DNA of 64,000 bases from the human T2T-CHM13v2.0 reference genome, Homo sapiens (GCF_009914755.1 NC_060929.1), one strand, 5' to 3'. Positions 36,401 to 38,881 are shown, numbered from the stretch's first letter. Translations and numbers: made by a program. The notes: generated by a model from the letters alone, not told the origin.

Positions 36401-38618
36401 CAATCACCTGAGCCCAAGAGTTCAAGGCGACAGTGAGCTATGATCACACCATGGCACTCCAGCCTTAGCCTTGGCGACAGAGCAAGATGCTGTCTCTAAA
36501 AACAAAGAAAGAAAAAAGAAGAAAATGCAAATTAAAACCCAACAAGATGCAAGTACACACCCAGTAGTAGAGTGACTAACTATAAAGATAAACAACACCA
36601 AGTGTAGTGAGGAACTAGAACTCTTAGAACATTGCTCAGGGGAAACATAAAATGGCAAAATCACTTTGGAGAAGCCATTTGTTGGTGTCTTTTTTTTTTT
36701 TTTTTTGAGGTGGAGTCTCAGTCTGTCACCCAGGCTGTAGTGCAGTGGCACTCTCTCGACTCACTGCAAGCTCCACCTCTTGGGTTCAAGCAATTGTCCT
36801 GCCTCAGCCTCCTGAGTAGCTGGGATTACAGGTGCCCACCACCACGCCCGGCTAATTTTTGTATTTTTAGTAGAGACAACGTTTTACCACGTTGGCCAGG
36901 ATGGCCTTGAACTCCTGACCTGGGGTGATCCGCCCGCCTTGGCCACCCAAAGTGCTGGGATTACAGGCGTGAGCTACCACGCCCGGCCTGTTGGTGTTTA
37001 AAAGGGTAAATTTATACTTACCGTATGACCCAGTAATTCTATTATCTGTTAGGGGCTGATTTGTGTCCCCCCAAAATTCATACATTGAAGCCCTAACCCC
37101 TAGTACCTCAGAATGTGACTGTATTTGGAGGTAGGGCTTTTAAAGAGGTGGTTAACACGAGACCATTGAAGTTGGGCTGGGACCTCATACGAGGATATTT
37201 GGACACACAGACACCAGGGATGCGCATGCACAGAGGACAGACTGTGTGAGCACGCTGCAAGAAGGCAGCCATCTGCTAGCCAGGGAAAGGGGCCTCAGGT
37301 GAATCAAACCTGCTGACACCTTGAGCATGGATTTCCAGCCTCCAGAACTGCCAGAAATCAGTTTCTGTTGTTTAACCCACCTAGTAAGTGGTGTTTTAGT
37401 TTTGCAACCCTAGCAATATCCAACAGAAATGAAAACCTATATTCATGCATAGACTTGTACATGAATGTACAAGAAGCTTTATTCATACTTGCTTGGAAAT
37501 GTAAGTAATCCAAATGTTCATCAACTAAACTCTCCTTCTCTCCCTCTTCCTCCTCCTCCTCCTCCTCTTCTTCCTCATCTTCCTCCTCCTTTTCCTCAAC
37601 CACCCGCCTCGTTCCAACATTTGGAAGCCCTACCCTGGGTGCATTTAAAGGCAGGTGAACAGATCTAAACATGTTGCAATATAGCCATCCAATGGAATAT
37701 TAATGATAAAAAAGAGTGAACTGTCTGGGCGCGGTGGCTCACGCCTATAATCCCAACACTTTGGGAGGCCAAGGTGGGTGGATCGCTTGAGCCCAGTAGT
37801 TTGAGACCAGCCTGGGCAACATACCAAAACTCTGTCTCTACAAAAAATAGGATAATTAGCCAGGTGTGGTGGCACACACCTGTAGTCCCAACAACTCAGG
37901 AGGCTGAGGCAGGAGGATCACTTGAGCCCACTGGTGGAGGCTACAGTGAGCCAAGATGGTCCCACTGCACTCCAGCCTGGGTGACAGAGTGAGACTCTGA
38001 TTCAAAAGGAAAAAAAAAAAAGGAATGAACCGCTGATGCATACAGCATTGTGGATAAACTTCAGAAATGTTATGCAGACACAGAGAAGTCAGAGACAAAA
38101 CAGCATATATTGTCTGATTCCATTTGCATGAAACTCTAGAAAAGTCAAATCTAATCTATAATAACAGCTAATCATGGCTGCCTAGTGGGTGATTAAACTG
38201 GGAAAAGGTAGGAGAGAATTCTGGTGGGGAATGGAATGTTCTACATCTCAAGTACAGTGGTGGTTACATAGGTGAGTACATTGGCCAAAACTCATCAAAC
38301 TATACACTGAAAATGCCTCATTAACAATTTTTTTTTTTGTTTTGAGACAGAGTTTCACTCTTGTTGCCCAGGCTGGAGTGCAGTGGCGTGACCTCGGTTC
38401 ACTGCAACCTCCACCTCCCGGGTTCAAGCAATTCTCCTGCCTCAGCCTCCCGAGTAGCTGGGACTACAGGTGTGCACCACCATGCCTGGCTAATTTTTGT
38501 ATTTTTAGTAGAGATGGGGTTTCACCATGTTGGCCAGGCTTGTCTTGAACTCCTGAACTCAGGCAGTCTGCCTGCCTCGGCCTCCCAAAGTGCTGGGATT
38601 ACAGGTGTGAGCCTGGCC
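33416..38618. mobile_element. Intron 17 cluster: eight Alus of mostly alternating orientation (33416-, 34371-, 35188+, 35802-, 36209+, 36689-, 37725+, 38328-) within or beside an old sense L1M (~35100-38325), plus an MLT1 LTR (37047-37416)
   Basis: L1 motifs (caaatggtgttggaacaattaga, aaaatgaaaaggcaagccacagact, atgacccagtaatt) interleaved with Alu consensus and MLT1 (tgtgtccccccaaaattcata). Confidence 0.85.
37527..37663. repeat. Local templated duplication: inverted copy of exon-18 core (37527-37614) plus direct copy of 38660-38701 (37621-37663)
   Basis: Direct sequence comparison within the window; see findings. Confidence 0.85.
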
Positions 38619-38748
38619 CCCCAAAACTTTTTAAAATATATCTTCAATCATCAAAAGGATTGGAAGCCCTACCTTGGGTGTATTAAAGGCAGGTGAACAG
38701 AGGCAGAGCGGCTTCTGGGTGGGTAACCAAAGTGCTTTGTCATCACAG

Positions 38749-38881
38749 GAGGTATGAGGAGACCAGTGAGAATGAGGCAGTAGCCGAGGAAGAGGAGGAG
38801 GAGGTGGAGGAGGAGGAGGGAGAAGAGGATGTTTTCACCGAGAAAGCCTCACCTGATATGGATGGGTACCCAGCATTAAAG
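38749..38881 (+). CDS. WWC1: WWC1 coding exon 18 (Glu-rich: RYEETSENEAVAEEEEEEVEEEEGEEDVFTEKASPDMDGYPALK)
   Basis: catcacag|G and TTAAAG|gtagga; 133 nt. Confidence 0.97.

What the first reader, a model, noticed from the sequence alone, without database searches (positions are those of the whole stretch)
37527..38835. Inverted 'shadow copy' of the Glu-rich exon 18 inside intron 17: templated insertion able to fold back on the exon
Seen: the intron-17 L1 relic (...caaatgttcatcaac | aggtgaacagatctaaacatg...) is interrupted by ~137 bp of non-L1 DNA made of two local pieces. (1) The reverse complement of 37527-37614 reads gaacgaggcgggtggttgaggaaaaggaggagg...gggagagaaggagagttt, versus exon 18 (38770-38835) gaatgaggcagtagccgaggaagaggaggagg...gggagaagaggatgtttt; the similarity extends into the non-repetitive flanks. 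Positions 37540-37576 pair with exon nt 38786-38822 at 34/37 Watson-Crick, plus 2 G-U and 1 mismatch. (2) 37621-37663 is a direct copy of 38660-38701, just upstream of the exon-18 acceptor (2 substitutions, 1 indel), and rejoins L1 through the microhomology aggtgaacaga. Inference: an old multi-switch templated insertion (MMBIR/FoSTeS or Pol theta type). It preserves a fossil with a longer Glu tract than today's exon and gives the pre-mRNA a built-in antisense strand to the GAR-rich enhancer core of exon 18. An inverted Alu pair (37725+ and 38328-) lies exactly between the two arms and would bring them together. Skipping exon 18 (133 nt) shifts the frame, so such a structure could tune KIBRA levels through NMD.
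Basis: partly seen in the sequence, partly recalled or inferred. Interest (0 to 1): 0.8.

Follow-up and report, generated by a model that had tools for sequence, protein, structure and literature searches.

The report
Patchwork DNA insertion mirroring WWC1 exon 18
An old jumping-gene relic in a WWC1 (KIBRA) intron carries a roughly 126-base patch copied at least partly from DNA just upstream of the next exon; it looks like an ordinary DNA-copying scar that happens to be able to pair with that exon in RNA, with no evidence yet that this matters.

Summary
The sequence features are real at the stated coordinates. The L1 relic is interrupted by about 126 nt that all 11 other L1 copies examined lack.

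- **Right piece, 37621-37663.** It is a direct copy of 38660-38701 (40 of 43 columns identical). These are the only two copies in the 3.1-Gb genome. This piece is solid.
- **Left piece, 37527-37614.** It is a period-3 CT-rich tract. Its likeness to exon 18 is not specific by sequence. Five of 5 unrelated genomic GA tracts score as well against exon 18, and the flank similarity is marginal (3 of 92 null tracts reach it).
- **Position argues for an exon-18 origin.** No other tract in the window (0 of 17) matches the left piece as well, and exon 18 lies 69 nt from the proven donor. I put that origin at about 0.75.
- **RNA pairing.** The duplex is strongly predicted (-112 kcal/mol, best of 3196 windows).
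- **Function.** My searches found no published evidence of exon-18 skipping or editing.

Most likely this is a neutral serial template-switch scar, a new member of a known kind. The NMD-tuning idea is untested. The "longer Glu fossil" claim is unsupported.

The parts
37416..37526 (+). L1 3'-region relic, part 1. It ends at ...catcaac.
   Evidence: It aligns to 11 other genomic L1 copies at 75-80% identity.
37527..37614 (+). CT-rich tract, a period-3 CTC-type repeat. It is the candidate inverted copy of exon 18 positions 38770-38835.
   Evidence: It is absent from 11 of 11 L1 relatives. TRF finds period 3 with 19.7 copies. It is 81% complementary to the exon over 62 nt. The flank test gives 3 of 92. 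The flank 26-mer is unique in the genome at 3 or fewer mismatches.
37615..37620 (+). A 6-nt joint between the two pieces, of unassigned origin.
   Evidence: It is covered neither by the direct-copy alignment nor by the flank alignment.
37621..37663 (+). Direct copy of 38660-38701. Its last 11 nt overlap the point where the L1 resumes (microhomology).
   Evidence: 40 of 43 columns are identical, with 1 indel. It is the only other copy in the genome.
37653..38659 (+). L1 relic, part 2, running to its A-rich 3' tail and carrying two later Alu insertions.
   Evidence: Alignment to 7 L1 copies through the 3' end.
37725..38020 (+). Alu, sense orientation.
   Evidence: Inverted-repeat pair I1. It shows 10.7% non-CpG divergence from the majority of the window's 36 Alus.
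38317..38630 (-). Alu, antisense orientation. It forms a predicted 256-pair stem with the first Alu.
   Evidence: It shows 5.2% non-CpG divergence.
38660..38701 (+). Donor of the direct copy. It starts at the end of the L1 tail and lies 48-89 nt upstream of the exon-18 acceptor.
38749..38881 (+). WWC1 exon 18 (133 nt). The GAG-rich core 38786-38829 is the predicted pairing partner, and 38770-38835 is the candidate donor.
   Evidence: Hub annotation, the translation, TRF, and the pairing.

Best explanation
Long after the L1 inserted, a copying error or break repair at the L1 site filled in about 126 nt by serial template switching to DNA about 1.1-1.3 kb downstream.

- One stretch was copied directly from 38660-38701. 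This step is shown.
- The strand then returned to the L1 through the shared aggtgaa..ga motif. This step is shown.
- The adjoining CT-rich stretch was most likely copied in reverse complement from the GAG-rich core of exon 18, 69 nt beyond that donor, and later drifted and lengthened by repeat slippage. This step is inferred, at about 0.75.
- The inverted Alu pair between the insertion site and the donors may have folded the single strand and brought them within a few hundred nt of each other. This step is inferred and untested.

The product is most likely a neutral scar. As a by-product, the pre-mRNA and single-stranded DNA carry a near-perfect antisense stretch of about 58 pairs to the purine-rich core of exon 18, which models predict will pair.
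For: - **The insertion is derived.** It is absent from 11 of 11 L1 relatives.
- **The direct copy is specific.** It is 40 of 43 identical, unique to these two sites in 3.1 Gb, and has no other window hit below E 0.77.
- **It is younger than the L1.** Three differences in 43 columns has P = 0.008 under the roughly 22% pairwise divergence seen among L1 copies.
- **The junction reads like the donor**, not like the L1 relatives, at 2 positions.
- **Position favours exon 18 as donor of the CT tract.** Exon 18 is its best partner in the window (56.8 bits against 39.7 for the next). None of 17 other window tracts and 4 of 50 bystander tracts in 266 kb score as high. Exon 18 lies 69 nt from the proven donor.
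- **The left flank gives some support.** It matches 15 of 20 with all 5 mismatches being transitions, and 3 of 92 null tracts reach that level. No better donor for that flank exists in the genome.
- **Pairing is strongly predicted.** The duplex is -112.3 kcal/mol against a mean of -46.7 (sd 12) over 3196 windows. The minimum-energy fold has 58 tract-exon pairs plus 256 Alu-Alu pairs, with pair probability about 1 for 38786-38829. The DNA fold gives the same two stems. Removing 37527-37652 in silico raises the unpaired probability of the core from 0.05 to 0.62.
- **The kind of event is described in print.** Template switching is reported to create reverse-complement copies and hairpins (PMC5453318, passages; PMC8794818, abstract). 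Templated insertions linked to MMBIR are also described (PMC8421209, passages).
Against: - **Sequence alone does not tie the CT tract to exon 18.** Five of 5 unrelated GA tracts score as well. Dozens of genomic tracts match its core better, at 85-90% against 81%. The right flank is not distinctive (31 of 92) and the summed flank score reaches only 6 of 92.
- **Identity to the exon depends on the alignment.** It is 88.5% (54 of 61 aligned positions) with a long gap. The 43-nt piece has 40 of 42 aligned bases identical. A single faithful event therefore needs extra mutation or slippage in the tract.
- **Two of the three junctions show no clear microhomology**, by reading.
- **The donors lie 1.0-1.3 kb away**, further than the 100 bp searched for such events in PMC8421209.
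- **The Alu-hairpin step is untested.** The age of the event (pairwise 0.048, 95% CI 0.006-0.172) cannot be ordered against the Alus (5.2% and 10.7%).
- **No outgroup genome was available.**
Confidence: 0.6

Rival explanations
1. Only the 43-nt piece is templated. The CT tract is an unrelated simple repeat, either filled in or captured at the break and then expanded by slippage. Its complementarity to exon 18 is the generic complementarity of any CTC repeat to any GAG repeat.
For: TRF finds period 3 with 19.7 copies and a 12-nt sub-period. The core matches dozens of genomic tracts better than it matches exon 18. Five of 5 unrelated tracts equal its score against exon 18. The right flank reaches only 31 of 92 and the summed flanks 6 of 92. 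The tract is 22 nt longer than the exon segment.
Against: A matching GA tract would have to lie 69 nt from the proven donor by chance. None of 17 other window tracts matches as well, which puts that chance at roughly 0.5-2%. This is my estimate from tract density. The left flank reaches 3 of 92 and its mismatches are all transitions.
Confidence: 0.22
2. Whatever its origin, the patch now works as a built-in antisense. By pairing with the purine-rich core of exon 18, clamped by the Alu stem, it lowers exon inclusion. Skipping shifts the frame, which would trigger NMD. Alternatively, the duplex draws ADAR editing onto the exon.
For: The tract is the strongest predicted partner of exon 18 in 64 kb. 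Pair probability is about 1. Core accessibility goes from 0.05 to 0.62 on in-silico removal. The exon is 133 nt long. Long-range pairing is known to control splicing in other genes (PMC8052449, PMC7797038 and PMC10789245, seen as search listings and abstract openings only).
Against: There is no experimental support. No paper holds both 'WWC1' and 'exon 18'. The one paper matching WWC1 with A-to-I and RNA editing is a study of DNA methylation in mouse brain, judged off-topic from its listing. The splicing papers I read mention only promoters and an alternative 3' site. WWC1 is absent from the supplements I could read of PMC8052449 and PMC10691357, and those of PMC10573301 could not be read. Thermodynamic folds ignore proteins bound to CU-rich and GA-rich RNA. 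Conservation could not be tested.
Confidence: 0.1
3. The patch is a by-product of the L1 integration itself. In this reading 38660-38701 and its copy are a target-site duplication, or the result of reverse-transcriptase switching onto target DNA.
For: The donor begins exactly where the L1 3' tail ends, which is the place of a 3' target-site duplication.
Against: The copy lies inside the L1, 205 nt from its 5' end, between two consensus-contiguous L1 parts. The copy and donor differ at 3 of 43 columns, while L1 copies differ from one another by about 22%, giving P = 0.008. The sequence to the left of the copy does not match the L1's 5' flank, by reading.
Confidence: 0.03

Closest known systems
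Templated insertions from microhomology-mediated template switching (MMBIR / FoSTeS type; 'MMB-TI' of PMC8421209)
   Same: It is a small insertion absent from the ancestral sequence. It is copied from nearby DNA, one piece possibly inverted. It returns through microhomology and has more than one template.
   Different: The donors lie 1.0-1.3 kb away rather than within 100 bp. One piece is direct. Two junctions lack clear microhomology. The event is old and fixed rather than somatic or de novo.
Short template-switch mutations, the four-point model (PMC5453318), which can create RNA hairpins (PMC8794818; PMC10710096 seen as a listing only)
   Same: A reverse-complement copy of nearby sequence creates a long perfect-like stem in the DNA and in the transcript.
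   Different: That model covers a single switch and return over short range. Here a second switch, in direct orientation, is needed, and the inverted piece is not securely assigned.
Long-range complementary regions that regulate splicing (PCCRs; PMC8052449)
   Same: An intronic stretch is complementary to an exon-proximal element, looping out about 1.2 kb.
   Different: Those are defined by conservation and sometimes by crosslinking or mutagenesis. None of that is available here, and the pairing is low-complexity.
Intronic inverted Alu pairs forming double-stranded RNA
   Same: Two opposite Alus about 300 nt apart give a predicted 256-pair stem.
   Different: Both Alus lie in one intron and do not flank an exon. 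Here the stem only serves as a clamp for the outer pairing.

Membership tests
Templated insertion by serial template switching (MMBIR/FoSTeS type) | The inserted DNA is absent from the ancestral state. | tested here: met
   11 of 11 other L1 copies lack the roughly 126 nt. No orthologous empty site could be examined.
Templated insertion by serial template switching (MMBIR/FoSTeS type) | The insertion matches a nearby template. | tested here: met
   The direct 43-nt piece is 40 of 43 identical and unique in the genome. For the inverted piece this is inconclusive.
Templated insertion by serial template switching (MMBIR/FoSTeS type) | Microhomology at the switch points. | tested here: inconclusive
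   The return junction shares an 11-nt motif with the donor and 9 of 11 with the L1 relatives. The other two junctions show 0-3 nt at most, by reading.
Single short template switch (four-point model, PMC5453318) | One switch and return, with the copied fragment in reverse complement. | tested here: not met
   The securely templated piece is in direct orientation. The paper states that it does not model multiple rounds.
L1 target-site duplication | Direct repeats flanking the 5' and 3' ends of the element, of the same age as the element. | tested here: not met
   One repeat lies inside the L1. It is much less diverged than the L1, P = 0.008.
Simple sequence repeat | A tandem short-period array. 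| tested here: met
   37532-37590 has period 3 with 19.7 copies and 76% matches. This holds whatever the tract's origin.
Regulatory long-range RNA structure (PCCR type) | Stable complementarity between the two regions. | tested here: met
   -112.3 kcal/mol, 58 pairs in the minimum-energy fold, pair probability about 1.
Regulatory long-range RNA structure (PCCR type) | Conservation or compensatory change across species. | not testable with these tools
   No primate or other mammalian genomes are held.
Regulatory long-range RNA structure (PCCR type) | In-cell pairing, and a splicing change when the pairing is disrupted. | not testable with these tools
   No data were found in print. The supplements of PMC10573301 were unreadable.

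The most novel reading that the evidence does not exclude
A lineage-specific template-switch event gave WWC1 pre-mRNA a built-in antisense to the splicing-enhancer core of exon 18. An inverted Alu stem clamps the two together. Exon-18 inclusion, and through the frameshift and NMD the KIBRA dose, or Glu-to-Gly recoding by ADAR, would then depend on helicases, ADAR or CU-binding proteins. That would be a primate-specific regulatory layer created in a single mutational step.
Probability: 0.07. Interest if true: 0.6.

Novelty: new member of a known kind. Interest (0 to 1): 0.3.

Why it matters
If only the origin holds, this is a clean fixed example of a multi-template insertion in a human intron, possibly helped by an inverted Alu pair. 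It is useful as an illustration but not surprising.

If the RNA pairing acts in cells, it would show how one mutational event can put a coding exon of a memory- and Hippo-pathway gene under structural control. A deletion minigene or a blocking oligonucleotide could test that.

Tried and rejected
- **Target-site duplication or reverse-transcriptase switching at L1 integration.** Rejected on position and age.
- **'Empty-site' copy.** I considered that the 6-nt joint plus the 43-nt piece might reproduce the pre-L1 junction. Rejected, because the matching 6-mer at 37421-37426 is L1-internal.
- **A donor elsewhere in the genome for the CT tract's unique flank.** None was found at 3 or fewer mismatches.
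- **A pattern for the uninterrupted L1 junction in the window.** 0 matches, so L1 relatives were fetched from the genome instead.
- **L1 part 2 by BLAST against the relatives.** This gave no hit at 1e-3. MAFFT alignment was needed.
- **A clock argument that the CT tract is older than the 43-nt piece.** Dropped, because an alternative alignment gives 54 of 61 identical positions and Fisher P = 0.30.
- **A second batch of 20 genomic regions for the null set.** The null therefore rests on 92 tracts, of which 42 were chosen as best genome hits and 50 are bystanders.
- **Literature on WWC1 exon-18 skipping or editing.** Nothing found.
- **Supplements.** WWC1 is absent from those held for PMC10691357 (1 file) and PMC8052449 (5 files). 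Those of PMC10573301 were unreadable and may bear on the pairing claim.

Full report
**What is there**

Window 37416-38659 is an old L1 3'-region relic. The label L1 is recalled. The support from calls is that more than 40 genomic copies match at 75-80% identity, with colinear alignments. It carries two later Alus in opposite orientation, at 37725-38020 (+) and 38317-38630 (-). Their arms of 194 nt are 79% complementary.

Between ...catcaac (37526) and the point where the L1 resumes (about 37653), the window has about 126 nt that all 11 of 11 other L1 copies lack. Ten of the 11 continue directly with the L1 sequence that follows the patch in the window.

**The right piece is a proven local copy**

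37621-37663 aligns to 38660-38701 with 40 identical columns, 2 substitutions and 1 indel.
- In the window the match has E about 1e-9, and the next hit of the pre-acceptor region has E 0.77.
- In the whole 3.1-Gb assembly these are the only two copies.
- The last 11 nt of the copy overlap the L1 restart. At two of these positions the window agrees with the donor rather than with the L1 relatives. The return microhomology is thus 7 nt perfect and 9 of 11 overall.
- The copy is much younger than the L1. Three differences in 43 columns has P = 0.008 if the pair had diverged like L1 copies, at about 22% pairwise.
- The substitution estimate is 0.048 pairwise (95% CI 0.006-0.172). That is too wide to order the event against the Alus, which show 5.2% and 10.7% non-CpG divergence from the majority of the window's 36 Alus.

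**The left piece is ambiguous**

37527-37614 is a period-3 CT-rich array of 19.7 units. Exon 18 has 11.3 GAG units. This is not specific by sequence.
- The tract matches dozens of genomic GGA/GAG tracts at 85-90%. Exon 18 is not among the 85 matches listed from 40 scored candidates.
- Exon 18 itself has at least 4 genomic matches at 80-82% over the same span.
- Five of 5 such unrelated tracts score 39-42 against exon 18, versus 39 for this tract.

I built a null set of 92 GA-rich tracts from 266 kb of the same genome.
- With a composition-aware score, the left flank of the tract reaches 13.1 against a null of 9.5 +/- 1.6. Three of 92 null tracts do as well.
- The right flank is ordinary, with 31 of 92 reaching it. 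The sum is reached by 6 of 92.
- A plain 20-mer test gives the same result: 15 of 20 with one indel, reached by 3 of 92.

In the left flank all five mismatches are transitions. By my reading, three are CpG-type and four fall on third codon positions, and the codons for Asn-Glu-Ala are kept. This is suggestive, but it was noticed after the fact.

Identity to the exon depends on the alignment. It is 54 of 61 aligned positions with a 21-nt gap. A clock comparison with the 43-nt piece is therefore not decisive (Fisher P = 0.30).

**Position is the better argument**

- Exon 18 is the best partner of the tract in the window, at 56.8 bits against 39.7 for the next.
- None of 17 other GA-rich tracts in the window, and 4 of 50 bystander tracts elsewhere, score as high.
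- Exon 18 lies only 69 nt beyond the proven donor.
- From those densities I estimate a chance coincidence at about 0.5-2%.
- The unique 26-nt flank of the tract has no other match in the genome at 3 or fewer mismatches, so no better donor exists today.
- Weighing this against the poor sequence fit, I put the exon-18 origin at about 0.75.

**Mechanism of origin**

The simplest account is serial template switching. The sequence of steps would be:
1. Leave the L1 at 37526.
2. Copy the exon core in reverse complement.
3. Switch to 38660 in direct orientation.
4. Return to the L1 by microhomology.

Such events, and their power to create hairpins, are described in print (PMC5453318, passages; PMC8794818, abstract; PMC8421209, passages).

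This case differs in three ways. It needs more than one round. The donors lie 1.0-1.3 kb away. Clear microhomology appears at only one junction.

The inverted Alu pair lies exactly between the insertion site and the donors. If it was extruded as a hairpin it would cut the effective distance to a few hundred nt. The DNA fold of today's sequence shows both stems. This step is an inference.

A target-site-duplication or integration-time origin was considered, because the donor starts exactly at the L1 tail. It fails on position and age.

**RNA consequences**

- The tract-exon duplex is -112.3 kcal/mol. It is the best of 3196 sense-strand windows across the 64 kb (mean -46.7, sd 12). The runner-up outside the patch, at 8661, reaches -94.9.
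- The minimum-energy fold of 37450-38950 has 58 tract-exon pairs and 256 Alu-Alu pairs, with pair probability about 1 for 38786-38829.
- Leaving out 37527-37652 in silico raises the mean unpaired probability of the core from 0.05 to 0.62.

These are thermodynamic predictions on naked RNA. They say the pairing is possible, not that it happens or matters.

I found no paper holding both 'WWC1' and 'exon 18'. No WWC1 editing report turned up. The WWC1 splicing papers I read mention only alternative promoters and an alternative 3' splice site. WWC1 does not occur in the held supplements of two structure catalogues, and a third could not be read.

**Claims not supported**

- The 'fossil of a longer Glu tract' is not supported. 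The extra 22 nt lie in a slippage-prone array with a 12-nt sub-period, and no outgroup was available.
- 'Tuning KIBRA through NMD' rests only on the arithmetic that 133 is not a multiple of 3.

**Verdict**

This is a real, composite, post-L1 templated insertion. One donor is certain and one is probable. It most likely represents a neutral scar, and it is a new member of a known kind. Interest is modest unless in-cell pairing or a splicing effect is shown.

Noticed in passing
window 38646-38660: The donor of the 43-nt copy starts exactly where the L1 relic's A-rich 3' tail ends, which is the place of a 3' target-site duplication. The tail also holds the 7-mer tcatcaa that ends L1 part 1 at the break (37519-37525).
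   Followed up: partly
window 37493-37498: The 6-mer ttggaa that opens the donor and its copy also occurs in the L1, 34 nt before the break. There is no similarity between the two in the stretch that follows.
   Followed up: partly
window 8661-8717: A CT-rich stretch inside the coding exon 8342-8877 is the second-best predicted RNA partner of exon 18 in the window (-94.9 kcal/mol).
   Followed up: no
window 37532-37627: The roughly 65-nt polypyrimidine tract is followed by an AG at 37626-37627. It could act as a decoy 3' splice site or as a binding platform for pyrimidine-tract proteins.
   Followed up: no
window 37200-37415: The sequence upstream of the L1 5' end looks like an LTR-type interspersed repeat. 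This is recalled resemblance, not tested.
   Followed up: no
window 32551-32690: Two long GA/CT-type tracts (70 and 62 nt) lie in the same intron. They pair less well with exon 18 (about -82 kcal/mol).
   Followed up: partly
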